From contig CBDCUE010000017.1 of the NCBI GenBank assembly GCA_965222515.1, forward strand, positions 71,040 through 135,039: a stretch of 64,000 nt of DNA, in the 5' to 3' direction. This DNA is from Rickettsiales bacterium (GTDB lineage: Bacteria > Pseudomonadota > Alphaproteobacteria > Rickettsiales > JABIRX01). Position 1 is the first letter of the stretch. Every line of letters begins with the position of its first letter. The translations under genes were made by a program, and so were the position numbers. Positions 4,830 to 54,755 of the stretch are shown here, in pieces. The notes below the pieces were generated by a model, which was not told the DNA's origin, searched no databases, and worked only from the letters and a program-made list of their open reading frames with translations.

Positions 4830-7529
4830 ATGAATGATTTTCCAAAAAAATACCAAGCTCAATTAAGAGAAAAAGCAATACAAAAAGAATGGGAAGAAAA
4901 AGCTGTCTATCAATGGCAAAATGATAAAAGCAAAGAAGAAACTTTTGTAATTGATACTCCACCTCCTACTGTATCTGGATTACTTCATATGGGTCATATC
5001 TTTAGTTATTGCCAAGCTGATTTTATTGCAAGATATCAGAGGATGAAAGGAAAAGATGTGTTTTATCCTATGGGTTTTGATGATAATGGCTTGCCTACAG
5101 AGAGATTGGTTGAGAAAGTAAAAAAGGTTAAAGGATCAAGATTGCCAAGAAAAGAATTTGTAGAAATGTGCAAAGAAGTGGTTTTGGATGCTGAAAAAGA
5201 TTTCAAGAATCTTTTTCAATCAATTGCACTTTCTGTTGATTGGCATCAAAAATACCAAACAATTTCAGACAAAACTAGAAAAATATCACAATTATCTTTT
5301 GTAGAACTTTACAAAAAAGGTTTGTTGGAACGAAAATATGAACCTTGTTATTGGTGTGTTGAAGATCAAACCGCTTTGGCTCAAGCAGATATTATTGATC
5401 GAGAATTACCATCTAAAATGATTGATATTGAGTTTAAAATAGAAGGAGGAGGAAGTGTTGTAATTGCTACAACAAGACCAGAACTACTTGCTGCTTGTAT
5501 TGCAGTATTTGTTCATCCCGAAGATGATAGATATAAAAATCTAGTTGGGAAAAATGCTATAACGCCTCTTTATCAACAAAAAATAAAAATTATTGCTGAT
5601 GATTTGGTGGATAAAGAAAAAGGAACTGGAGCGGTGATGTGTTGTTCTTTTGGAGATATGAGCGATGTTATTTGGTGGAAAAAGTATAATTTAGAAAATA
5701 GAACTATTATTAGTAAATATGGAAAAATTTGTTCGTACTTAGAATTAACTTCTATTTTTATAAATAACAATGGAATAGTAGGGGATGGAGTTACAAGTGC
5801 TTGGACTGGTAGTATAAGTGGTACGGTGTTTAAAGAAGAATATCAAAAGATAGCAGAAAAAAAAGTTTTTGAAGCAAGAAATATAGTTTTGGCAAGATTG
5901 GCAAAAGAAAAGTTGATTAAAGGTCAAAAAGATATTGTTCATTCAGTGAAATGTTCCGAGAGATCAGAAAAACCGATAGAAATTATTGCAACAAAACAAT
6001 GGTTTGTAAAAATTTTAGACAAAAAAGAAGAACTTTTAAAAAAGGTTCAAGAAATAAATTGGTACCCTGCTCATATGAAAATTAGAATTGAGCAATGGAT
6101 TGAAGGTCTAGCTTATGATTGGTGTATTTCAAGACAAAGATTTTTTGGAGTGCCTTTTCCAGTTTGGTATTGTTTTAAATTAAAGACTGAAAGAATAGGG
6201 GAGGTTAGAAGAAAAGAAGACGAGATTATTGTAGAAGATAAAGATTTACCATTTGATCCTTTATATAATTTGCCAGAAGGTTATAGAGAACCAACAGGAC
6301 AAGAAATAGAGTTTTTGAAGGATGAGCAAAAAGAATATATTAAAAATAGAACTATAAACACAGATAAAAAAGAGTTTGTAGTGGTAAAAAAAGATGACAA
6401 AAACGAGCAAAAACAATTTTATCTATTAATCCCTGAAACAGATGTAATGGATACTTGGGCGACATCTTCGCTTACTCCGCAAATATCATCTCAAGGAATA
6501 AATGAAGAATGTTTTGTAGAGAAAGAAAAGCATAAAAAACTTTTTCCAGCAGATTTAAGACCTCAAGCTCACGAGATTATTAGAAGTTGGGCATTTTATA
6601 CCATTTGTAAAGCTCATCTACATCAAAATTTAATCCCTTGGAAAGATGTAATGATTTCTGGTTGGTGTTTGGCTGCTGATAAAACAAAAATGTCAAAATC
6701 TAAGGGGAATGTTATAACTCCTGTAAAATTGATTGAAGAAAAGGGGGCAGATGTGGTGAGATATTGGGCAGGAACTTCATCTTTGGGGGCTGATGCTGCT
6801 TATAGTGAAGATTTGCTTTCTATTGGAAAAAAATTAATTAATAAATTATGGAATAGCAGTAAATTTGCTAATACTCATTTAGTAGATTTTCAAAAATTAG
6901 AAGCCGACAAAATATATCACCAAACAGATTTATGGATTTTAAATCTTTTGCAGGAAGTTAAGAAAAAAGTAGAGAAATATTTTGCAGAATATAGATATTC
7001 TAAAGCATTATCGGTTATTGATGATTTTTTTTTAAAAAATTTTTGTGATTATTATTTAGAAATTTCAAAAGTAAGAATTTATGGAAATAAAGAGCAAATA
7101 GAACTTACTTGTAAAAATCTTAATGATAATGAAATAGAGCAGGGCAAGGCAAGTGCTAAAAATACACTTTATATAGTTTTAAAAAATATTTTAAAATTAT
7201 ATGCTCCATTCCTGCCTCATATTACAGAAGAATTATATAAGTTGATCTTTAAAAAAGAACATTCAATTCATAGCAGAGGAAATTGGCTTGATTTAAGTGA
7301 TTTAAAAAATATTAAAAAAGTAGATTTTTCTAATATTTTAGAAATCATAGATAAAATTAGAAAAGATAAGGCAGATAAAAATTATTCTATAAAAAAAGAA
7401 ATAAAAAAGTTAATTATAAAATCTAAAAATAAAATTGAGACCAATAATGATTTAAAATTTGTTTGTTCAATAAAGAAAATAGAATTTTATTCAGCTGACA
7501 AAGAAGGTATTGAAATTATTTATGAATAA
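4830..7529 (+). CDS. valS: valine--tRNA ligase, archaeal/Rickettsia-type
   Basis: 899-aa class I aaRS with a HIGH-type motif (SGLLHMGHIFSY) and KMSKS (KMSKSKGN). The N-terminal IDTPPPTVSG layout is that of the archaeal-type ValRS known from Rickettsia, not the bacterial PPPNVTG type. Confidence 0.85.
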   Translation: MNDFPKKYQAQLREKAIQKEWEEKAVYQWQNDKSKEETFVIDTPPPTVSGLLHMGHIFSYCQADFIARYQRMKGKDVFYPMGFDDNGLPTERLVEKVKKVKGSRLPRKEFVEMCKEVVLDAEKDFKNLFQSIALSVDWHQKYQTISDKTRKISQLSFVELYKKGLLERKYEPCYWCVEDQTALAQADIIDRELPSKMIDIEFKIEGGGSVVIATTRPELLAACIAVFVHPEDDRYKNLVGKNAITPLYQQKIKIIADDLVDKEKGTGAVMCCSFGDMSDVIWWKKYNLENRTIISKYGKICSYLELTSIFINNNGIVGDGVTSAWTGSISGTVFKEEYQKIAEKKVFEARNIVLARLAKEKLIKGQKDIVHSVKCSERSEKPIEIIATKQWFVKILDKKEELLKKVQEINWYPAHMKIRIEQWIEGLAYDWCISRQRFFGVPFPVWYCFKLKTERIGEVRRKEDEIIVEDKDLPFDPLYNLPEGYREPTGQEIEFLKDEQKEYIKNRTINTDKKEFVVVKKDDKNEQKQFYLLIPETDVMDTWATSSLTPQISSQGINEECFVEKEKHKKLFPADLRPQAHEIIRSWAFYTICKAHLHQNLIPWKDVMISGWCLAADKTKMSKSKGNVITPVKLIEEKGADVVRYWAGTSSLGADAAYSEDLLSIGKKLINKLWNSSKFANTHLVDFQKLEADKIYHQTDLWILNLLQEVKKKVEKYFAEYRYSKALSVIDDFFLKNFCDYYLEISKVRIYGNKEQIELTCKNLNDNEIEQGKASAKNTLYIVLKNILKLYAPFLPHITEELYKLIFKKEHSIHSRGNWLDLSDLKNIKKVDFSNILEIIDKIRKDKADKNYSIKKEIKKLIIKSKNKIETNNDLKFVCSIKKIEFYSADKEGIEIIYE

Positions 7530-45925: not shown

Positions 45926-47866
45926 TTATGCTATATTTTTATTATTATCATTGGTTTGTATTTCTTCCGTCCAATTCTTTACAATATTATTATTTCCACT
46001 TTTAGGCAAAGGATTGGCATCTTTTACTTTAAACAAAACAGGTAAATTAGTTGCTGTTCCAAATATTAAAGCTTCTTGGTTTGGAATAGAGGGGAGCTGC
46101 TCTAATAATGTTCTAGAAATAAAAGGAGTCATTGCTCTAATAAAATTCAAATCGTTTGGATTCTGTATTCTGTGAATAATAAAGTTGCTACATTGTGATA
46201 AAACTGTTTCGTTAAGCTCACTAGGTCTTTGACTAGACAACATTAATAACAAACCATATTTTCTAGCTTCTTTTGCAATTCTTTCAAAAATTCTATTAGC
46301 TTCAAAAAAATATTCTTTTCCTTTATTATTTGATATATATCTATGAGCTTCATCTAAAATAAGATGAATTGGTTCTGTATTTCGTGATTCTAATTTTTTA
46401 ACATATTCAAAAAATATTCTTGCAAGAACAGAGGAAACAACTTCAATTACCTCATCATCAATATTATCAAAATTAATAATAGAGATATTGAAGTCTTTTA
46501 TAAACTTTTCTATGTACGAATCTAGATCTTCTTTGTTTTTAAAAAAAGAAAACTCTGTTCTTGTGCTTAAGGATTTTAATCTTGTAATCATAGAGGAACA
46601 ATAATCCCGTACCTGTTTATTACCATGTGCCTCTTCCCAAGATATAGCTAACTCTATATACTCTTCTAGTCTATCTAATTTTATTTCACTCTCACCGTTA
46701 TAATTAAAATCTATAAATTCTTGAGTATTTTCTTGTTCTAGTTTGCTCAAATATTCTTTAAATTCGGTACAATTTTTAATTTCTCCATAATGCGTTCCTA
46801 GATAGAGATCTAGCTTTTCTTTTGTAAATTTTATACAAGATGTAGAAATTTTATTATTATCAAATGAATGTTTCTCTATAAAAAATTGTAATCTATTATT
46901 TTGTAATTTATTATAATTAGCAATAATTTTACTAACTGTATAATTAGAATCAGTTTCTAATAATGATTGAGAGATTTTACAAAAAATATAAGTTTTAAGC
47001 TTGTTTTTAGAATCATTAGAATCATTATCCTCTTGGTTTTCACATAAACTATATAAACCTAAAGCATTTCTTAAAATAGGGGACTGGGCTTTAGAACTTG
47101 CCTTTAATAATAATTCCCATTCATCAATATTTAATAAATTTAACGGCAAATAAAAATTATTATTGTTTTCTTTATTTTTAAAATCAAAGCATTTCAATTC
47201 TATATGTTCTAATAATTCTTCCTTTTCTTCTTTAATAAAGGCCTTTTTATATTCTCCATTTACATCAAAAAAGATAAATTTAGATTTTGGATATTTATTT
47301 TTTTTGTAAATAGTTTGTAAAATTGATGAAATCGTGCAACTTTTTCCACTCCCTGTATTTCCTAAAATAGCACTATGGAGTCCAAAAAAATTATTTATAT
47401 TTATTTTAACTCTATATTTCTCTAATAATGTCCAAGTCCCTATATCTAAATATTTATCTTTTTCTTGTACCGCACTACCAAATAATGCATTTAACTCCTT
47501 TTCTTTGATATAAAGAACATCACTATAAAGGTTAGGGTAATTAGAAACTCCAAAGGTAAATTTTTCTTTTTCTAAAATTCCCATAGGAAAAAGTTCTAAA
47601 ATTTTATTAGAATTAATTTTGCTCAAACCATCTTTATCTACAAAAGTAGAGTTGTCCTCTTTTTCTCTTATTGAAGAAATAGAAGCGACAATGAAGTTAT
47701 TTTCAATACAGACTAAGACATAACCATTTAATCTAATAAATTGATATATATCATCAAAGTCATTAATATTAAAACTATTAATACTACTTAATAATTCTGC
47801 TTCTAACTTATAAGCATTAATACTAATAATTTTGGCTATAGCTCTTTCTTTTTTACTTTGAATCAT
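45926..47866 (-). CDS. herA: HerA/FtsK-type (DUF87) ATPase, partner of the SIR2 domain
   Basis: 646 aa. Walker A GNTGSGKSCT, Walker B IHLILDEAHRY, LSSQRPSEL. Overlaps the upstream ORF by 14 nt and ends 3 nt before hsdR. Confidence 0.8.
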   Translation of the reverse strand: MIQSKKERAIAKIISINAYKLEAELLSSINSFNINDFDDIYQFIRLNGYVLVCIENNFIVASISSIREKEDNSTFVDKDGLSKINSNKILELFPMGILEKEKFTFGVSNYPNLYSDVLYIKEKELNALFGSAVQEKDKYLDIGTWTLLEKYRVKININNFFGLHSAILGNTGSGKSCTISSILQTIYKKNKYPKSKFIFFDVNGEYKKAFIKEEKEELLEHIELKCFDFKNKENNNNFYLPLNLLNIDEWELLLKASSKAQSPILRNALGLYSLCENQEDNDSNDSKNKLKTYIFCKISQSLLETDSNYTVSKIIANYNKLQNNRLQFFIEKHSFDNNKISTSCIKFTKEKLDLYLGTHYGEIKNCTEFKEYLSKLEQENTQEFIDFNYNGESEIKLDRLEEYIELAISWEEAHGNKQVRDYCSSMITRLKSLSTRTEFSFFKNKEDLDSYIEKFIKDFNISIINFDNIDDEVIEVVSSVLARIFFEYVKKLESRNTEPIHLILDEAHRYISNNKGKEYFFEANRIFERIAKEARKYGLLLMLSSQRPSELNETVLSQCSNFIIHRIQNPNDLNFIRAMTPFISRTLLEQLPSIPNQEALIFGTATNLPVLFKVKDANPLPKSGNNNIVKNWTEEIQTNDNNKNIA

Positions 47867-50291
47867 TTTTAAATAAATATTTATTTAATATCGTTTCTAA
47901 TCGCTCATCATCTTCATTACTTTCTAATAAAAAATTCTCTATAATATAACTAAAATCTGATATATTCTTACCCTCACCTTCTATACCTTCTAGAATCCAA
48001 ATTCTAGGATCATCAAAATCTTTTATTTTTTTTAACTCTTTATTTTTCTCAATATCTGCATATGAAAAAATAATAAGCCTAAACTTAGGAATTGTTGCCA
48101 AAGCTTGATATATAATATTATTAATATGCTCATCAGCAAAACTATAGCCAATTACAACTAAAATATTATCTGGTTGTAATAATTTTTTTTGAAATTCCCT
48201 AAAAAGATCGCTATAAGGAGATGCAAAACTACTATTTTGTTTTGTGGGGGTAGGATAAATCATTATATTATTATCATCATTATTAAAACTAGGATTTTGT
48301 ATTTCTTTTATTTTAAATAATTTATTTTCATTTGCTTCTTCAATCCAATTAATTGAGCCGTGTAATTTATATAAATAAATATATTTATCTATAATATGAT
48401 ATTTTTTATCACTTAAGCCTATTTGCTCGGCATATGCATAATTAAAAGTCATTGGATTAAAACATCTATTAATATTGCCACTAAATCCATTACAATAAAT
48501 AATTCTCAAATCATCCATTGCTTTCTCACTAAACAAATCATAGTTTGTTGTGAAAATATTTATTTTTGAGAAAAAATTTTCTCTATACATTAATTTTTTA
48601 TAAAAAGATTTATAGATTTCTAATGTTGTAGAATATCTAATTTTTATATTATCATCATCTTGTTTAACTTTGCAAAGAGCTGCATCAAAAACTAACTTCT
48701 TTATTTCTTTTATTAAATCCCTAATTGTTTTAGTTTCGTTCTGTTCATTTAAGCTTGAAATATATTCTTTTGCATAAAGATATTGCAACATTTTTTCTAA
48801 GTTTTTATTATTAAGAACTTTATCCGGTACTTCTTTCTCAATAAGATTTACATCCAATTTTTTAAATAAGTCTGTCATTGTTGGAATTGCTCCACTAGAA
48901 CAACCTGCCCCTAATAAGAAAGATAGATGGGAAGAGGAAAATATTTTATTAATATCTTTTTTAATTAACTCAATATTGTTTTCTTGGTTTTCTAAAAAGT
49001 TTTTATTTCCTTTAAAAAATTTTATCATTATTTTTATAATTTTAATTATATTTACCCTAATTTCTCCACTAATTAATTTAGGGAGGAGCAGATCTCTTTG
49101 TTTTTCTAGGGTTTGGATTTGTTGTTGATTTTTTTTGATTTTATTAAAAATCTCTTCGACTTGATTTTTAAAAGCTAACATATTTCTTTCGCTAGGGATA
49201 AACAATAATATTTTTTTTATCATTCCTGAATTTATAGAAGTAACAATAGAAGATGTGCTCCCCAAAATATTATATTTAAATTGTTTTAAAAAAAGGTATA
49301 AAAACTCCTTACAAATTACAGTTGTGTTTTTTATTTTAAAATGCGCGATAGCTTCATTTGAAACCATATCTTCTGATGTTATAGCTACCCTACCAACGGT
49401 CATTTTAAAGCTTAGAATAACTGTATCTTGGGTAATCACAGGCACTCTAAATTTTTCAATAGCTTCTTTTGTTAAATATTCTGATGTATTGAATGTAAAA
49501 ACTCCATTATTACCTAAATCTTTAATAGAAATCCATTTAATATCATTATTATTTTGAGAAAACCATTTAAATTCTTTTCGTGGAGGAGTTCTTCCTATAG
49601 CAATATCTGTAATGTCTCCCAACCTGCCTTCCTTCCAACTATCATCTTTATTTTCAATAAAATAATGTTTAAAGAGAGTTTCTGCTAATTTTTCTAAGGT
49701 TTTATTTTGTCTGTGTAAAAGGTCAATTTTATCATCTAGGCTTGATTCTGCTAATTTTTCTAAGGTTTTATTTTGTCTGTGTAAAAGGTCAATTTTATCA
49801 TCTAGGCTTGATAATATTTCTGCTATTGCTTCTTGTTCGGGAAGAGGGGGGATATTAAATAAATAATTTGTAATTACATCTGTTTGCACTCTTTGCCTTC
49901 CAGAGCTACCTGACATAGATGAAATAGCTATCTTTCTAAATTGAGGGGATATAGCAAAATAGTAAATAAAAGATTTATTTGATAATAGGTGCTTTTCTCT
50001 TAATACAATAAATTCAGTGCTACCAAAAGCTACTGTGCTATTTTCTAATATATCTACAAAGGCAGTTTTGCCATTTTCTAAACAAGGAGTTATTCTAGCT
50101 AATAAAGTATCTCCATTTCTAAATTTTACACCTCCTTTATATTTTTCTTTTATAACCTTATTAATTTTTTTTGTAAAAGGAAAAACTGCATCCATACAAA
50201 CCTTAGAATGTAGAGTTTCTTTTTTTAAAATCTCCCTAGGGTTTATATCCACCACATCCCCCAACCGACATTTTTTCCAACCTTCTCTCAT
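47853..50291 (-). CDS. hsdS: type I restriction specificity subunit (HsdS) fused in-frame to a SIR2_2-type domain
   Basis: 812 aa. Residues 1-413 are two TRDs plus the central helix (LPEQEAIAEILSSLDDKIDLLHRQNKTLEKLAE) and the distal helix (QTLEKQRDLLLPKLISGEIRV). Residues ~422-812 carry FLLGAGCSSGAIPT, FTTNYDLFSEKA, LYKLHGSINW and VVIGYSFADEHIN. Confidence 0.8.
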   Translation of the reverse strand: MREGWKKCRLGDVVDINPREILKKETLHSKVCMDAVFPFTKKINKVIKEKYKGGVKFRNGDTLLARITPCLENGKTAFVDILENSTVAFGSTEFIVLREKHLLSNKSFIYYFAISPQFRKIAISSMSGSSGRQRVQTDVITNYLFNIPPLPEQEAIAEILSSLDDKIDLLHRQNKTLEKLAESSLDDKIDLLHRQNKTLEKLAETLFKHYFIENKDDSWKEGRLGDITDIAIGRTPPRKEFKWFSQNNNDIKWISIKDLGNNGVFTFNTSEYLTKEAIEKFRVPVITQDTVILSFKMTVGRVAITSEDMVSNEAIAHFKIKNTTVICKEFLYLFLKQFKYNILGSTSSIVTSINSGMIKKILLFIPSERNMLAFKNQVEEIFNKIKKNQQQIQTLEKQRDLLLPKLISGEIRVNIIKIIKIMIKFFKGNKNFLENQENNIELIKKDINKIFSSSHLSFLLGAGCSSGAIPTMTDLFKKLDVNLIEKEVPDKVLNNKNLEKMLQYLYAKEYISSLNEQNETKTIRDLIKEIKKLVFDAALCKVKQDDDNIKIRYSTTLEIYKSFYKKLMYRENFFSKINIFTTNYDLFSEKAMDDLRIIYCNGFSGNINRCFNPMTFNYAYAEQIGLSDKKYHIIDKYIYLYKLHGSINWIEEANENKLFKIKEIQNPSFNNDDNNIMIYPTPTKQNSSFASPYSDLFREFQKKLLQPDNILVVIGYSFADEHINNIIYQALATIPKFRLIIFSYADIEKNKELKKIKDFDDPRIWILEGIEGEGKNISDFSYIIENFLLESNEDDERLETILNKYLFKNDSK
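49680..49811 (-). repeat. perfect 2 x 66-bp tandem duplication inside the hsdS central conserved region
   Basis: Units 49680..49745 and 49746..49811 are identical base for base. They duplicate SSLDDKIDLLHRQNKTLEKLAE. Confidence 0.95.
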
Positions 50292-50518
50292 CTGCTTTTC
50301 CTTTCTAAAATTATTGCCTCAAAAGCTGGATTATCATTTTTAACTAAATCACTTTCTTCATAATCTCCTAGCCAATCTTCTGAATTTTCTTTCTTCAATT
50401 TTTTTTTACAAATTCTTTTTTCATCAATATCATCATATCCACCTTCATAACCATCAACCATAATTTCTAGTTCTTTTGGGTATGTTTCTAATATTTTAAT
50501 TAATTCTGCTATTTTCAT
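50288..50518 (-). CDS. hypothetical acidic 76-aa protein
   Basis: ORF overlaps the hsdS start by 4 nt (translational coupling). No motif. Confidence 0.4.
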   Translation of the reverse strand: MKIAELIKILETYPKELEIMVDGYEGGYDDIDEKRICKKKLKKENSEDWLGDYEESDLVKNDNPAFEAIILERKSR

Positions 50519-50541
50519 TTTAATTTTTTATATTTTTATAG

Positions 50542-50856
50542 CTATTTCTTTGTAATAATATTTCCATTTGCTGTATTGCGATTTGATTTAATCCATTTCA
50601 ATGGAGATAATACAAAATGATTAAAGCCTGCCTCATTTTTAAACTGGTCGAATTCTACCAGTTTAAAATCAGGATTATTTAATTTCTCCCATAAACCAAG
50701 TAATTCTATAGTATTTTTAGTTCTTATCCAATTTTTGATTACATCAGCAGGTGCATTAGGATTTTTATATTTTGCAATATCTGTAATAGAGATAAAATCT
50801 TCTTGTTGATTTGTTGCTAAATTAATTTCAATATTACTAACTTTTATTTTATTCAT
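50542..50856 (-). CDS. KilA-N domain protein (short, N-terminal domain only)
   Basis: 104 aa. FISITDIAKYKNPNAPADVIKNWIRTKNTIELLGLWEKLNNPDFK...EFDQFKNEAGFNHFVLSPLKWI resembles the KilA-N DNA-binding domain often found in R-M loci. Confidence 0.5.
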   Translation of the reverse strand: MNKIKVSNIEINLATNQQEDFISITDIAKYKNPNAPADVIKNWIRTKNTIELLGLWEKLNNPDFKLVEFDQFKNEAGFNHFVLSPLKWIKSNRNTANGNIITKK

Positions 50857-50859
50857 AGC

Positions 50860-51846
50860 TTATTTCTCTTTAATTAAATTTTCTAAATCTTTTAAATCCT
50901 CTTCATCAGCTATTTTTGCCTCATCTTTTTTTCTTTTTTTATCAAAATCACTGTAAATTTGATTAACTTTCTCCTCCATTTTTTTATGACTAATTTTTCC
51001 TTTATGATTTAAAATCATAAAATCATTAGAGGTTAAAATTCTATCTACATTTTCTTCCCAAAATTTTAAAGTAAGCTCTTTTTGATTTTTTGCTCTTAAT
51101 TCTGCCGTTTCTAAAAATATTACTACCAATCTATTTAAACTATCTAACTCATCTTTTAATAAATAGTTTTTAGCAGTAATAATATCAGCCTTTCTAACTA
51201 TTTTACCCTTCCAAGCAGTAAGCCCCATATTAGATTTATTGCTATCTGCTCTTGAGTTAATAATTTCTGCAGCTGTTTGTCCTGTTATAGCATATAAAAG
51301 TTTATTTTGTATTTCTGCAAAAAACAACCTCGTTTTTTTATCAGTTTTATCATAATCACTAGATAATTTTAATAAATCTCTTATTTTTTGATAAAATCTT
51401 TTTTCAGATGCTCTAATATCACGGATTTGCTCTAAAAGCTCATCAAAATAATCTATTCTACCATCTGGGTTTTTTAATCTCTCTGTATCAATAATAAAGC
51501 CTTTTACGACATAGTCTTGCAAATAATCATTTGCCCATTTTCTAAATTGTGTTCCTCTTTTGCTTCTTACTCTAAAACCTATTGCTAAAATCATTTTTAA
51601 TGAATAAAAAGCAACATTGTAATCTTTACCATCTTTTGCAGTTCGTCGGAAATTCCGACATACTGAATTTTCTTCTAATTCTTCTTCTTGAAAAATACTA
51701 GATATATGTTCTGTAATTGTGCTTCTAGCTTTATCAAAAAGCTCAGCTATTTGATCTTGGCTTAACCAAATATCTCCATTTTTAGCATAAAGAGAAACTT
51801 CACTTTTACCATCATCTGTATTATAAATAATTATCTTATCATTCAT
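50860..51846 (-). CDS. rhuM: RhuM-family protein
   Basis: 328 aa. ...SEVSLYAKNGDIWLSQDQIAELF...STITEHI...NVAFYSLKMILAIGFRVRSKRGTQFRKWAN...RASEKRFYQKIRD... is the characteristic RhuM pattern. Overlaps hsdM by 4 nt. Confidence 0.75.
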   Translation of the reverse strand: MNDKIIIYNTDDGKSEVSLYAKNGDIWLSQDQIAELFDKARSTITEHISSIFQEEELEENSVCRNFRRTAKDGKDYNVAFYSLKMILAIGFRVRSKRGTQFRKWANDYLQDYVVKGFIIDTERLKNPDGRIDYFDELLEQIRDIRASEKRFYQKIRDLLKLSSDYDKTDKKTRLFFAEIQNKLLYAITGQTAAEIINSRADSNKSNMGLTAWKGKIVRKADIITAKNYLLKDELDSLNRLVVIFLETAELRAKNQKELTLKFWEENVDRILTSNDFMILNHKGKISHKKMEEKVNQIYSDFDKKRKKDEAKIADEEDLKDLENLIKEK

Positions 51847-53354
51847 AACTGAACTTTCTTTAAATTATCCAAAATTCTCTTATTCAGCTCTGTTTCTTCT
51901 GTTAATTGCTCATTAAATTCTTTTTGTAATCTAGTAAATTCTGTTTTAAAATCAAATTCTTCTTCTACCTCCTCTAAGCCGACATATCTACCTGGAGTTA
52001 AGACATAATCCAATTTTGCAACCTCTTCTATTGTTTCACTTTTGCAAAAACCTGCTATATCTTGGTAAGAATCATTTTCTTTTTTCCAATTATGATAGGT
52101 AGAGGATATTTTATTAATATCATCTTTTGAAAGTTCTTTTGTTCTTCTATTAATAAGATGCCCTAATTCCCTTGCATCAATAAATAAAATCTCATTTTTT
52201 CTATATGTTTTGTCACGACTCATAAACCAAAGACTGGCTGGAATTTGGGTATTTAAAAATAATTTTGCAGGTAAATTTACAATACAATCAATTAATCCTG
52301 CTTCAATTAATTTTTTTCTAATTTCTCCTTCTCCTGATGTTTGTGAAGTAAGAGAACCCTTAGCTAAAACAAATCCTGCTGTTCCACCATTTGGTGATAG
52401 ATGATATAAAAAATGTTGAATCCAAGCATAATTTGCATTACCAGTTGGTGGTGTTCCATATTGCCATCTTCCATCATTTTTTAATAATTCACCATTCCAA
52501 TCACTCACATTAAAAGGTGGATTTGCTATAATATAATCTGCTTTTAAATCTTTATGAGCATTATTTAAAAATGATCCTTCATTATTCCATTTAACTTGCG
52601 AGCTATCAATTGCCCTAATAGCTAAATTCATCTTTGTTAATCGCCAAGTGGTTTGATTGCTTTCTTGTCCATAAATAGAAATATCATTTATTTTTCCTTG
52701 ATGCTCTGTTATAAATTTTTCAGATTGCACGAACATCCCACCACTTCCACAACAAGGATCAAAAACTCTACCTTTATAAGGTTCTAACATCTCAACAAGC
52801 AGGCCTACTATAGATTTTGGAGTGTAAAACTGCCCACCTTGTTTTCCTTCAGCAAGTGCAAATTCTCCTAAAAAATATTCAAAAACATGACCTAAAATAT
52901 CAGCATTTTTAGCTTTAGCATCACCTAGGGCAATATTTCCAATAAGATTGATTAATTCTCCAAGATTAGTAGTATCTAAATTTCCTTTTGCATAAACTTT
53001 AGGCAAAATAAATTTTAATGATGAATTATCTTTTTCAATCATATCCATAGAATGATCAATATATTTGCCTATTTCAGGGTCTGTTGCTTTTGCTTGTAAA
53101 TATGACCATCTTGCAACAGGAGGCACAAAAAAAACATTTTCTGCTTTATATTCATCTTTATCTTCAGGATCAGCTCCAGCATATTCACCTTCCCCTTTTA
53201 TTAATTTCTCATGCAATTCTTCAAATGAATCAGAAATATATTTCAAAAACATTAAGCCAAGTACAATATGTTTGTATTCTGCTGCATCAATATTTTTTCG
53301 TAATTTATCCGCAGTTGCCCAAAGTTGCTTCTCTATAGGTTCTTTATTTGCCAT
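51843..53354 (-). CDS. hsdM: type I restriction-modification system, M subunit (N6-adenine methyltransferase)
   Basis: 503 aa. HsdM N-terminal domain, motif I VFDPCCGSGGMFV, motif IV IIANPPFN. Confidence 0.95.
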   Translation of the reverse strand: MANKEPIEKQLWATADKLRKNIDAAEYKHIVLGLMFLKYISDSFEELHEKLIKGEGEYAGADPEDKDEYKAENVFFVPPVARWSYLQAKATDPEIGKYIDHSMDMIEKDNSSLKFILPKVYAKGNLDTTNLGELINLIGNIALGDAKAKNADILGHVFEYFLGEFALAEGKQGGQFYTPKSIVGLLVEMLEPYKGRVFDPCCGSGGMFVQSEKFITEHQGKINDISIYGQESNQTTWRLTKMNLAIRAIDSSQVKWNNEGSFLNNAHKDLKADYIIANPPFNVSDWNGELLKNDGRWQYGTPPTGNANYAWIQHFLYHLSPNGGTAGFVLAKGSLTSQTSGEGEIRKKLIEAGLIDCIVNLPAKLFLNTQIPASLWFMSRDKTYRKNEILFIDARELGHLINRRTKELSKDDINKISSTYHNWKKENDSYQDIAGFCKSETIEEVAKLDYVLTPGRYVGLEEVEEEFDFKTEFTRLQKEFNEQLTEETELNKRILDNLKKVQL

Positions 53355-53826: not shown

Positions 53827-54321
53827 TTAAACCTCTCTTAATGCTTTAAATAAGTTAAAACTAACCATAGCTATACTAGTTTGAATGCCAGCTCCATTCA
53901 TAGTTTTCAACACTATTTTATTTAATGTGTAATCTTTTTTTAAATTTCCTATTACCCCCTCAACTCTAGACCTTGATTTCCTCAATCTCCTTTTTTCTAA
54001 TTTTTGCTTAGCTGTAGATTTTCCTTGATTCTTAAGACTATGTTTTATATCAAAACTCTTTAATAAAGCTTTATTATCAAACGAAGAATAACCATCATCT
54101 ATCAGAACCTTCTTCGGCAATCTCTCAAATCTATCTTGATGATTTGCTAAACTATTCTTTAATTCTAACTTCTCATTAAATGCTCTATGCTCTACTTTAT
54201 CACTAAACACATAACCATCTGTTAAAGCTATTTTTAATATATCTATTTGCTTAATTGCATAACTTCTTACAGTATTAAGCAATTTTACATCATTTGGATA
54301 TTCTATTTTACTCTCAAACAT
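53827..54321 (-). CDS. IS5-family transposase, C-terminal part (different frame)
   Basis: 164 aa: ...KIEYPNDVKLL...VLIDDGYSS...RSRVEGVIGNLKKDYTLNK.... The frame differs from that of the N-terminal ORF, so this is either a frameshifted pseudogene or a programmed frameshift. Confidence 0.65.
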   Translation of the reverse strand: MFESKIEYPNDVKLLNTVRSYAIKQIDILKIALTDGYVFSDKVEHRAFNEKLELKNSLANHQDRFERLPKKVLIDDGYSSFDNKALLKSFDIKHSLKNQGKSTAKQKLEKRRLRKSRSRVEGVIGNLKKDYTLNKIVLKTMNGAGIQTSIAMVSFNLFKALREV

Positions 54322-54755
54322 GTACCATCAAGCAACAATTCTTTTCCTTTGACAAACCTTTTATCCTTTAGCACCTCTAATATTTCTGATTCAAATTTTA
54401 AAAAATACTCTGCTCCTAATTTATTTCTTCTTTTTGTTAATAAGCTAGGATCCATCACTTTTGTTATCTTGCTTACAAAAGTATCATAACCACAAAAATA
54501 TTGAAAATATGGATTTTCATAAAAATATTCTAATATCTCAACATCACTCAAACCTAATCTTACTTTACCTATAAGCAAACCTAGCACTAATTTAGCTGAT
54601 TTTACCACTCCCAATTTTTTAGGATCAAAATATTTATCATGAAGTGCAATCAAATTATCCCAAGGAACTAGCTCTGATAATTTTATCCATCTGTTGTTTT
54701 CGTCTAACTTACCTCCAAAAGGCATCATATCTACAAATAATGGTAATGTTCTCAT
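54303..54755 (-). CDS. IS5-family transposase, N-terminal (DUF772) part
   Basis: 150 aa with ...LEYFYENPYFQYFCGYDTF.... Confidence 0.7.
   Translation of the reverse strand: MRTLPLFVDMMPFGGKLDENNRWIKLSELVPWDNLIALHDKYFDPKKLGVVKSAKLVLGLLIGKVRLGLSDVEILEYFYENPYFQYFCGYDTFVSKITKVMDPSLLTKRRNKLGAEYFLKFESEILEVLKDKRFVKGKELLLDGTCLRVK

What the first reader, a model, noticed from the sequence alone, without database searches (positions are those of the whole stretch)
45926..50291. HsdS specificity subunit fused in-frame to a SIR2 domain and followed by HerA, inside a type I R-M operon
The 812-aa minus-strand ORF begins as a complete type I specificity subunit. It has two target-recognition domains, the central conserved helix (LPEQEAIAEILSSLDDKIDLLHRQNKTLEKLAE) and the distal helix that normally ends HsdS proteins (QTLEKQRDLLLPKLISGEIRV, to about aa 413). 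Instead of a stop, the frame continues for ~400 aa. This extension carries the motif set of the SIR2_2 family used in phage defence: FLLGAGCSSGAIPT (Rossmann GAGxS), FTTNYDLFSEKA (catalytic Asn), LYKLHGSINW (catalytic His) and VVIGYSFADEHIN. The next ORF overlaps by 14 nt and is a 646-aa HerA/FtsK-type ATPase (Walker A GNTGSGKSCT, Walker B IHLILDEAHRY). SIR2+HerA is a known two-gene NAD-depleting anti-phage system. Here the pair sits between hsdS and hsdR, with a 3-nt gap to hsdR, and the SIR2 half is covalently joined to the DNA-sequence reader of the restriction enzyme. I know of no described HsdS-SIR2 fusion. One reading is sequence- or methylation-state-specific activation of a SIR2-HerA NADase on the M2S1 scaffold. 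Another is a PrrC/EcoprrI-like arrangement, where an abortive-infection effector is held in check by the R-M complex. An internal ATG at 49028 (MIKFFKGNK...) lies just after the HsdS end. No purine-rich Shine-Dalgarno-like run lies within 15 nt upstream of it (AAATTATAAAAATA-ATG), so the fusion reading is favoured but not proven.
Basis: partly seen in the sequence, partly recalled or inferred. Interest (0 to 1): 0.92.

Follow-up and report, generated by a model that had tools for sequence, protein, structure and literature searches.

The report
SIR2-HerA cassette read-through-fused to hsdS
A known NAD-depleting phage-defence gene pair (SIR2-HerA) sits in its usual slot inside a type I restriction operon, and in this one genome the hsdS reading frame runs on into sir2 without a stop, which looks like a recent accident and not a new kind of enzyme.

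Summary
Window 47853..50291(-) is one 812-aa ORF. It holds a complete HsdS (aa 1-413), an 8-codon all-A/T linker and a complete SIR2 (aa 422-812). HerA follows with a 14-nt overlap and HsdR after a 3-nt gap, inside an hsdM...hsdR operon.

- The fusion is a singleton. An exhaustive search of 1.84 billion representatives found no other protein with both halves.
- SIR2-HerA does recur in the hsdS-hsdR slot in metagenomes, always as separate genes. Junctions there are a 14-nt spacer with AAGGA(G), or a TAATG stop/start overlap.
- The sir2 ATG (49028) keeps the full start-site signature of this genome, which hardly uses Shine-Dalgarno sequences.
- In solved SIR2-HerA complexes the SIR2 N-terminal helix docks into HerA.
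- hsdS also carries a unique perfect 66-bp duplication in its coiled coil.

Most likely this is an ordinary R-M-embedded SIR2-HerA system with a recent stop bypass at the hsdS/sir2 junction. An assembly indel, or a truly functional fusion, cannot be excluded without reads or protein data. Interest is modest.

The parts
51843..53354 (-). hsdM (503 aa), first gene of the array
   Evidence: Pfam N6_Mtase 4.5e-108 and HsdM_N 2e-24. PADLOC MTase_I 1.6e-191.
50860..51846 (-). rhuM-family gene (328 aa) embedded after hsdM, with a 4-nt overlap
   Evidence: Pfam Virulence_RhuM 1e-104. PADLOC PDC-S05 4.5e-141.
50542..50856 (-). Truncated KilA-N gene (104 aa)
   Evidence: Pfam KilA-N 5e-08. PADLOC PDC-S22 matches only profile positions 5-96 of 281.
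50288..50518 (-). 76-aa ORF with no family match; its stop overlaps the hsdS start (ATGA)
   Evidence: no Pfam hit.
49053..50291 (-). hsdS part of the fused ORF (aa 1-413): two TRDs, a central helix and a distal helix ending GEIRV
   Evidence: Pfam and PADLOC. Alignment with 34 HsdS homologues that end 1-25 aa after GExRV. AF2 model with mean pLDDT 83, and Foldseek matches to HsdS structures 1YF2, 3OKG, 5YBB and 7VS4.
49680..49812 (-). Perfect 66-bp x2 tandem duplication (22 aa SSLDDKIDLLHRQNKTLEKLAE twice) in the hsdS central conserved helix
   Evidence: TRF reports 100% match and 2.0 copies. It is absent from all 34 aligned homologues. AF2 gives pLDDT below 50 for aa 169-189.
49029..49052 (-). 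24-nt all-A/T linker (AATATAATTAAAATTATAAAAATA, NIIKIIKI) joining the hsdS and sir2 frames
   Evidence: The other two frames are closed by TAA codons at -20, -8, -2 and at -16 relative to the ATG. The sequence contains a TAATG motif like the stop/start overlap in L012.
47853..49028 (-). sir2 part (aa 422-812, 391 aa) starting at the retained ATG 49028
   Evidence: PADLOC SIR2 1.3e-122. It is 57-61% identical to stand-alone SIR2 proteins of 384-409 aa, one of which (P0128) starts MKFFKG. Catalytic N, D and H lie in invariant columns. PDB 8YHX at 2.9e-44. Start-site signature.
45926..47866 (-). herA (646 aa), overlapping sir2 by 14 nt
   Evidence: Pfam DUF87 5e-21. PADLOC HerA 5.2e-193 over the full length. 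PDB HerA chains of SIR2-HerA complexes, 1e-40 to 7e-49.
42806..45922 (-). hsdR (1038 aa), 3 nt after herA
   Evidence: Pfam HSDR_N, SWI2_SNF2, T1R_D3-like and T1RH-like_C. PADLOC REase_I with E=0 over the full length.
39957..42517 (.). IS remnants flanking the island downstream of hsdR: an rve integrase fragment and a 560-aa transposase
   Evidence: Pfam rve, rve_2 and rve_3. The transposase occurs on 3 contigs.
53827..54755 (-). Split DDE/DUF772 transposase flanking the island upstream of hsdM
   Evidence: Pfam DDE_Tnp_1_2 and DUF772 fall on two overlapping ORFs.

Best explanation
This is a standard two-gene SIR2-HerA abortive-infection system (an NADase effector plus a HerA ATPase). It lies in the slot between hsdS and hsdR of a type I R-M operon, an arrangement that recurs in other bacteria. 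In this single uncultured Rickettsiales genome, the hsdS frame runs through a 24-nt all-A/T junction into the sir2 frame. The likely cause is a recent 1-nt indel or a TAA-to-AAA change.

Inferred consequences:
- The sir2 ATG and its unstructured, A-rich, SD-less initiation region are intact, so free SIR2 of about 45 kDa is still made and assembles with HerA.
- The 812-aa read-through protein is a lineage-specific by-product, not an evolved DNA-sequence-guided NADase.
- hsdS carries a second fresh lesion (the 66-bp duplication), which points to relaxed constraint on that gene.

Shown: the anatomy, the uniqueness of the fusion, separate genes in relatives, and the start-site signature.
Inferred: internal initiation, the recency of the event, and the lack of adaptive value.
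For: - Singleton: no other protein has both halves in the word-indexed searches. None appears among the top 150 (at least 238 bits) of an exhaustive phmmer search of 1.84 billion representatives.
- No stop-to-stop ORF holds both domains in the 88 fetched loci, which contain 90 SIR2 ORFs.
- The same gene order occurs with separate genes. L076, L072 and L070 have the hsdS stop, 14 nt holding AAGGA(G), then the ATG. L012 has a TAATG overlap. L037 has HsdM 67% and HsdR 60% identical to the window, with sir2-herA in the same slot.
- HsdS homologues end 1-25 aa after GExRV, and the closest ones (P0241, P0257, P0253) 2-6 aa after it. One stand-alone SIR2 relative (P0128) starts MKFFKG, matching M422 here, and K6/G7 are invariant across the family.
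- Every single-base deletion in the linker restores a stop at -20, -8, -2 or +1 relative to the ATG. Two A-to-T substitutions give TAA.
- Only 5 of 39 genes have an SD core.
- ATG 49028 has a 63-nt MFE of -0.6, 73% A and 0% GC upstream. Real starts average -2.4, 57% and 13%. Internal ATGs average -7.7, 37% and 31%. Only 0.5%, 2.6% and 1% of 194 internal ATGs are as extreme.
- The SIR2 N-terminal alpha1 helix is bracketed by HerA beta-barrels, and N-terminal deletions abolish binding and NADase activity (PMC11472057, PMC11514289).
- The 66-bp duplication is unique to this hsdS.
Against: - No transcript, ribosome-profiling or protein data exist, so internal initiation is inferred from context only.
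- The promoter-like matches at the junction do not exceed chance.
- Ribosomes translating hsdS will pass over the ATG and make the fusion protein, whose fate is unknown.
- Only the HerA-proximal SIR2 layer uses its N-termini, so fused subunits might still be tolerated in a mixed ring.
- Both halves of the ORF are otherwise intact, with all catalytic residues present. That fits a functional product as well as it fits a very recent event.
Confidence: 0.55

Rival explanations
1. Assembly or sequencing artefact. The real genome has a 1-nt difference in the A/T runs of the junction, so hsdS stops at one of the TAA codons just upstream of, or overlapping, the sir2 ATG, as in relatives.
For: - The linker is 24 nt of pure A/T with A4 and A5 runs, and any 1-nt deletion recreates the canonical junction, including the TAATG overlap seen in L012.
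- There is only one assembly of this lineage. All tested proteins are singletons at 90% identity, and no independent contig carries the locus.
Against: - 44 kb of ORFs in the window contain 1530 A/T runs of at least 4 nt (131 of at least 7 nt), and none breaks a frame.
- Housekeeping proteins match their profiles over the full length, so homopolymer error looks rare.
- The 66-bp duplication in the same gene is not a typical assembler error. It suggests that real recent mutations have accumulated in hsdS.
Confidence: 0.15
2. Functional covalent coupling. HsdS::SIR2 is the working protein, and it tethers the SIR2-HerA NADase to the M2S1 / R2M2S1 complex. NAD depletion is then triggered by target-site or methylation-state recognition, or by restriction-generated DNA ends.
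For: - The ORF is open and both halves are intact, with catalytic N and H present.
- The tight hsdS-to-sir2 adjacency recurs in several lineages, which suggests a functional link between the two systems.
- HsdS tolerates fusion at its other end: many homologues carry an N-terminal nucleotidyltransferase, and an hsdM-hsdS fusion of EcoKI was built by removing the frameshift between the genes (PMC3510504).
- One Sir2-HerA type is licensed by end-exposed DNA (PMC13434337), which HsdR cleavage could supply. This last step is my inference.
Against: - There is no second example among about 15 billion proteins.
- The linker looks like translated intergenic DNA.
- The internal start signature is fully retained.
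- The SIR2 N-terminus is the HerA docking element, and SIR2 forms 12-14-mers against one HsdS per M2S1.
- AF2 gives falling confidence across the linker (pLDDT 74 down to 34) and no extended coiled coil.
Confidence: 0.1
3. Decaying locus. The read-through, together with the 22-aa coiled-coil duplication, has inactivated HsdS. It has also crippled SIR2, through little internal initiation or fused subunits that poison the ring. Both the R-M specificity and SIR2-HerA are then on the way to becoming pseudogenes in an IS-ridden intracellular bacterium.
For: - There are two rare lesions in one gene.
- A truncated KilA-N neighbour and IS remnants lie on both sides of the island.
- The host is an uncultured Rickettsiales lineage. 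That such genomes commonly decay is background knowledge, not tested here.
Against: - HsdM, HsdR, HerA and both halves of the fused ORF are full-length, with no internal stops or frameshifts.
- The duplication is in frame and perfect, so it is very recent.
Confidence: 0.15

Closest known systems
SIR2-HerA (GAO_19 / Nezha) abortive-infection systems; solved complexes from S. aureus (8YHX), Paenibacillus (8W9L, 8WLD) and 8J4U / 8SU9
   Same: - A full-length SIR2_2-type NADase with catalytic Asn, Asp and His.
- A HerA/DUF87 ATPase with Walker A and B motifs.
- Overlapping genes on one strand.
- Sequence matches to the solved chains: SIR2 at 2.9e-44 to 8YHX, HerA at 1e-40 to 7e-49.
   Different: Here SIR2 has no upstream stop and is read in frame with HsdS. 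Sequence identity to the solved proteins is low. Activity was not tested.
SIR2/HerA inserted between or next to R-M genes (S. thermophilus CR3 defence island, PMC11514479) and defence genes embedded in type I R-M, BREX and DISARM (Payne et al., bioRxiv 10.1101/2024.01.29.577857)
   Same: A defence cassette nested inside a type I R-M operon. I found the same hsdS-sir2-herA-(rhuM)-hsdR order in metagenome loci L012, L070 and L076, with a partial copy in L072 and a related arrangement in L037.
   Different: In all of those the cassette genes are separate ORFs. Here the hsdS stop is missing.
PrrC anticodon nuclease embedded in the EcoprrI type I R-M locus
   Same: An abortive-infection effector that is almost always found embedded in type I R-M. 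From my own knowledge it occupies the same slot, between hsdS and hsdR.
   Different: The protein is unrelated (an ABC-ATPase-like anticodon nuclease). PrrC is a separate polypeptide held in check by the R-M complex. No such regulation is known for SIR2-HerA.
Frameshift-level fusions in type I R-M (hsdM-hsdS of EcoKI, PMC3510504)
   Same: Neighbouring, translationally coupled type I genes differ from a fusion by a single frameshift at an overlapping stop/start.
   Different: That fusion joins two subunits of the same enzyme and was engineered. Here the partner is an unrelated defence effector.

Membership tests
Type I restriction-modification system | HsdM with an N6-adenine methyltransferase domain and the HsdM N-terminal domain | tested here: met
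   Pfam N6_Mtase 4.5e-108 and HsdM_N 2e-24.
Type I restriction-modification system | HsdS with two target-recognition domains separated by two conserved helices | tested here: met
   Pfam Methylase_S with 2 stretches. PADLOC Specificity_I. AF2 model and Foldseek matches to 1YF2, 3OKG, 5YBB and 7VS4. Caveat: the central helix carries a unique 22-aa duplication.
Type I restriction-modification system | HsdR with an N-terminal nuclease domain, a SWI2/SNF2 motor and a C-terminal domain | tested here: met
   Pfam HSDR_N, SWI2_SNF2, T1R_D3-like and T1RH-like_C. PADLOC REase_I over the full length.
Type I restriction-modification system | Sequence-specific methylation and ATP-dependent restriction | not testable with these tools
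   Needs a methylome and restriction assays.
SIR2-HerA (GAO_19/Nezha) | SIR2_2-family protein with a complete fold and catalytic Asn, Asp and His | tested here: met
   PADLOC SIR2 1.3e-122 covering profile positions 7-406 of 414. N162, D164 and H223 lie in invariant columns of a 30-sequence alignment. PDB 8YHX.
SIR2-HerA (GAO_19/Nezha) | HerA/DUF87 ATPase encoded immediately downstream on the same strand | tested here: met
   A 14-nt overlap. PADLOC HerA 5.2e-193. Walker A and B motifs present.
SIR2-HerA (GAO_19/Nezha) | SIR2 made as a separate polypeptide of about 400 aa whose N-terminal alpha1 helix docks between HerA beta-barrels | tested here: inconclusive
   The ORF is fused to hsdS. However, the native ATG and its start-site signature are retained. 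The docking role of the N-terminus comes from PMC11472057 and PMC11514289.
SIR2-HerA (GAO_19/Nezha) | Phage-triggered NAD+ depletion and abortive infection | not testable with these tools
   Needs expression and phage challenge.
   No second protein has both halves. No fused ORF occurs in the 88 fetched loci, which contain 90 SIR2 ORFs. Relatives with the same gene order have separate genes.
   The linker is 24 nt of pure A/T, one indel away from a stop. ATG 49028 is more start-like than 97-99.5% of internal ATGs, depending on the measure.
PrrC-type R-M-guarding effector | Effector gene embedded in a type I R-M operon in the same orientation | tested here: met
   The genes from hsdM to hsdR are co-directional, with gaps of 23 nt or less.
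PrrC-type R-M-guarding effector | Homology to PrrC (an ABC-ATPase-like domain plus an anticodon nuclease) | tested here: not met
   Only SIR2 and HerA families match.
PrrC-type R-M-guarding effector | Effector silenced by the R-M complex and released by a phage anti-restriction factor | not testable with these tools
   Needs biochemistry and genetics.

The most novel reading that the evidence does not exclude
The 812-aa HsdS::SIR2 protein is functional, alone or mixed with free SIR2 in the ring, and it physically couples a type I DNA-sequence reader to the SIR2-HerA NADase. Target-site recognition, methylation state or HsdR-generated DNA ends would then gate NAD+ depletion. The 22-aa lengthening of the HsdS coiled coil, roughly one DNA turn, could be a co-adaptation that changes the spacer or makes room for the appended complex.
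Probability: 0.08. Interest if true: 0.8.

Novelty: new member of a known kind. Interest (0 to 1): 0.3.

Why it matters
If the best explanation holds, the locus adds one more case of SIR2-HerA nested in the hsdS-hsdR slot of type I R-M, here in an uncultured Rickettsiales. It also shows how tightly coupled junctions (a TAATG overlap or a 14-nt spacer) sit one indel away from a chimeric ORF.

The more useful lead is the recurrent, tight hsdS-to-sir2-herA-to-hsdR order across unrelated type I families. That order suggests co-regulation or functional cooperation between restriction and NAD-depleting abortive infection, for example restriction-generated DNA ends feeding HerA.

Only if the fused protein proved active would this become a new, programmable, sequence-guided NADase.

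Tried and rejected
- Exact look-ups of the fusion, HerA and HsdM in public assemblies found nothing.
- A genome-contig scan with the fusion found only one distant SIR2, in Pedobacter.
- A gapped junction DNA pattern in metagenome contigs found 0 hits. No independent assembly could therefore be checked.
- Promoter scan of the junction: 8 sites against 4.5 +/- 2.3 expected, and the minus-strand site upstream of ATG 49028 matches only 9 of 12 positions. This is not evidence for an internal promoter.
- A joint MAFFT alignment of the fusion with HsdS and SIR2 homologues (A2) misaligned the halves, so I did not use it for structure prediction.
- I tested whether the read-through tail extends the distal helix to pair with the duplicated central helix. 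AF2 on aa 1-470 gave a low-confidence loop-out for aa 169-189 and falling pLDDT after aa 414, so the idea has no support.
- The Payne et al. supplements do not mention SIR2.
- In PMC13434337, 'HsdS' refers only to a strain genotype.
- Rfam and tRNA scans gave no taxonomic or regulatory RNA in the locus.

Full report
**Observation.** Pfam finds Methylase_S (6e-27, two stretches) and SIR2_2 (3e-11). PADLOC finds Specificity_I (2e-95) up to about aa 415. It also finds SIR2 (1.3e-122), with aa 423-806 matching profile positions 7-406 of 414. The next ORF (45926..47866) is a full-length HerA (PADLOC 5.2e-193) that overlaps sir2 by 14 nt. hsdR (42806..45922) starts 3 nt after herA.

**Operon.** The minus strand carries, in order: hsdM (51843..53354), rhuM (50860..51846), a truncated KilA-N gene (50542..50856), a 76-aa orphan ORF (50288..50518), hsdS::sir2, herA and hsdR. 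No gap exceeds 23 nt and several junctions are stop/start overlaps. IS remnants flank the island on both sides. The host is an uncultured Rickettsiales. It has an archaeal-type ValS and a VirB4 equivalog, and the best named VirB4 hits are 'Rickettsiales bacterium' at 73% and below. GC in and around the locus is 21-31%. Every protein I looked up is a singleton at 90% identity, so this is the only assembly of its lineage.

**Junction.**
- HsdS homologues stop 1-25 residues after the conserved GExRV. The closest ones (P0241, P0257, P0253) stop 2-6 residues after it.
- Here GEIRV (to aa 413) is followed by eight codons, AAT ATA ATT AAA ATT ATA AAA ATA (NIIKIIKI), and then ATG 49028.
- Met422 matches the N-terminus of the stand-alone relative P0128 (MKFFKG...). 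Other relatives place 2 to about 30 residues before the same F/YxKG motif.
- The 24-nt linker is pure A/T. The other two frames are closed by TAA at -20, -8 and -2, and at -16.
- Every single-base deletion in the linker gives a stop at -20, -8, -2 or +1 relative to the ATG. Two A-to-T changes give TAA.
- The sequence contains TAATG, the same stop/start overlap used at the hsdS/sir2 junction of locus L012.

**Is the fusion found elsewhere?** No.
- The word-indexed search with the whole protein returned only HsdS proteins, covering at most 54% of the query.
- The search with the SIR2 half returned only stand-alone SIR2 proteins of 382-478 aa.
- An exhaustive phmmer search of 1.84 billion representatives gave 39,452 hits. 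None of the best 150 (at least 238 bits, at most 567 aa) covers both halves.
- Exact look-ups, a genome scan and a gapped junction pattern found no second copy of the locus.

**Is the gene order found elsewhere?** Yes.
- Of 80 metagenome loci carrying relatives of this SIR2, 11 have type I R-M genes next to sir2-herA.
- L076 reads hsdM-hsdS-sir2-herA-...-rhuM-hsdR. L012 reads hsdS-sir2-herA-rhuM-hsdR. L070 reads hsdS-sir2-herA-hsdR. L072 is a short contig holding only the hsdS 3' end and sir2.
- L037 has HsdM 67% and HsdR 60% identical to the window. There sir2-herA lies between an extended hsdM and hsdR.
- In all of them sir2 is a separate gene. L076, L072 and L070 have a 14-nt spacer holding AAGGA(G). 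L012 has TAATG.
- No stop-to-stop ORF in the 88 loci holds both domains.
- The closest SIR2-HerA pairs (57-61% identity) are not in R-M operons at all. The cassette has therefore entered this slot more than once.
- Embedding of defence genes in type I R-M, and SIR2/HerA inserted between R-M genes in S. thermophilus, are already published.

That argument fails, because only 5 of 39 ORFs of at least 150 aa in the window have a 4-nt SD core. herA and hsdR lack one too. The context of ATG 49028 compares as follows:

| Site class | 63-nt MFE (kcal/mol) | A in -15..-1 | GC in -15..-1 |
|---|---|---|---|
| Real starts (n=33), mean | -2.4 | 57% | 13% |
| Internal in-frame ATGs (n=194), mean | -7.7 | 37% | 31% |
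| ATG 49028 | -0.6 | 73% | 0% |

Only 0.5%, 2.6% and 1% of the internal ATGs are as extreme on the three measures. The sir2 initiation region is intact, so independent initiation is plausible. This is an inference and has not been shown.

**Structure.** The closest solved relatives are SaSir2-HerA (8YHX, 2.9e-44), 8J4U and the Paenibacillus complex (8W9L). In these, SIR2 forms a 12- or 14-mer on a HerA hexamer. The SIR2 N-terminal alpha1 helix is bracketed by HerA beta-barrel elements, and N-terminal truncations abolish binding and NADase activity. Short His tags are tolerated. A 47-kDa HsdS attached about 25 residues before that helix would be expected to interfere, at least in the HerA-proximal layer. 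This is also an inference. The AF2 model of aa 1-470 is a confident HsdS (mean pLDDT 83) and matches HsdS structures 1YF2, 3OKG, 5YBB and 7VS4. Confidence falls from 74 to 34 across the linker and the SIR2 N-terminus.

**A second lesion.** hsdS holds a perfect 66-bp tandem duplication (49680..49812). It doubles 22 residues of the central coiled-coil helix. None of 34 homologues has it. AF2 loops it out at pLDDT below 50. Two fresh, rare changes in one gene suggest relaxed constraint on hsdS, or very recent change.

**Artefact?** An indel error in the A4 or A5 runs would explain everything, and I cannot check reads. Against this, 44 kb of ORFs in the window hold 1530 A/T runs of at least 4 nt without a broken frame, and housekeeping proteins match their profiles end to end. 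I put this reading at about 0.15.

**Mechanism.** Type I R-M acts as the first line of defence (M2S1 methylates, R2M2S1 restricts). SIR2-HerA acts as a co-transcribed abortive-infection back-up that depletes NAD+ when triggered. For one E. coli type, phage SSB proteins and end-exposed DNA are the activating inputs. HsdR cleavage could supply such ends, but that link is speculation. The fused ORF is most simply a recent stop bypass at a tightly coupled junction.

| Reading | Confidence |
|---|---|
| Best explanation (recent stop bypass, free SIR2 still made) | 0.55 |
| Assembly artefact | 0.15 |
| Decaying locus | 0.15 |
| Truly functional fusion | 0.10 |

**Verdict.** The sequence observation is right, and the fusion is unique among the sequences I could search. 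However, the evidence points to an ordinary R-M-embedded SIR2-HerA with an incidental read-through, not to a new class of sequence-guided NADase. Interest is 0.3. The recurrent hsdS-sir2-herA-hsdR order is the better lead.

Noticed in passing
window 49680..49812: A perfect 66-bp x2 tandem duplication in the hsdS central conserved helix (22 aa repeated). It is unique among 34 homologues. About 33 A of extra helix is roughly one DNA turn, so it could lengthen the recognition spacer or inactivate HsdS.
   Followed up: partly
proteins P0002, P0003, P0004 and others: Most of the closest HsdS homologues carry an N-terminal nucleotidyltransferase (Pfam PF18765, PF01909) fused to HsdS. The window's HsdS lacks it. 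Natural fusions to HsdS exist, but at the other end and with a different partner.
   Followed up: partly
window 50288..51846: Three more genes lie between hsdM and hsdS: rhuM (PADLOC PDC-S05), a KilA-N gene truncated to 104 aa (against a 281-position PDC-S22 profile), and a 76-aa ORF with no family match whose stop overlaps the hsdS start.
   Followed up: partly
window 39957..42517 and 53827..54755: The R-M island is bracketed by IS remnants: an rve fragment, a 560-aa transposase present on 3 contigs, and a split DDE/DUF772 transposase. This suggests IS-mediated acquisition or rearrangement.
   Followed up: partly
whole window: The genome hardly uses Shine-Dalgarno sequences (5 of 39 genes). 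Starts lie in unstructured, A-rich, GC-poor contexts that separate sharply from internal ATGs.
   Followed up: yes
whole window (e.g. 4830..7529, 59159..61558): The host is an uncultured Rickettsiales lineage: archaeal-type ValS, and VirB4 73% identical to the best hit named 'Rickettsiales bacterium'. Every protein checked is a singleton at 90% identity. A multi-layer defence island in such a bacterium is itself unusual.
   Followed up: partly
L037 3643..5808: In a marine contig with the same type I family, hsdM carries a C-terminal extension of about 230 aa with no Pfam HsdS match, and there is no separate hsdS before sir2-herA-hsdR. This may be a divergent M-S fusion.
   Followed up: no
proteins P0005 and P0006: HsdS homologues from AT-rich contigs have a low-complexity tail of about 65 aa after the distal helix. 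It looks like read-through into intergenic DNA, so stop loss at hsdS 3' ends may not be rare in AT-rich genomes.
   Followed up: no
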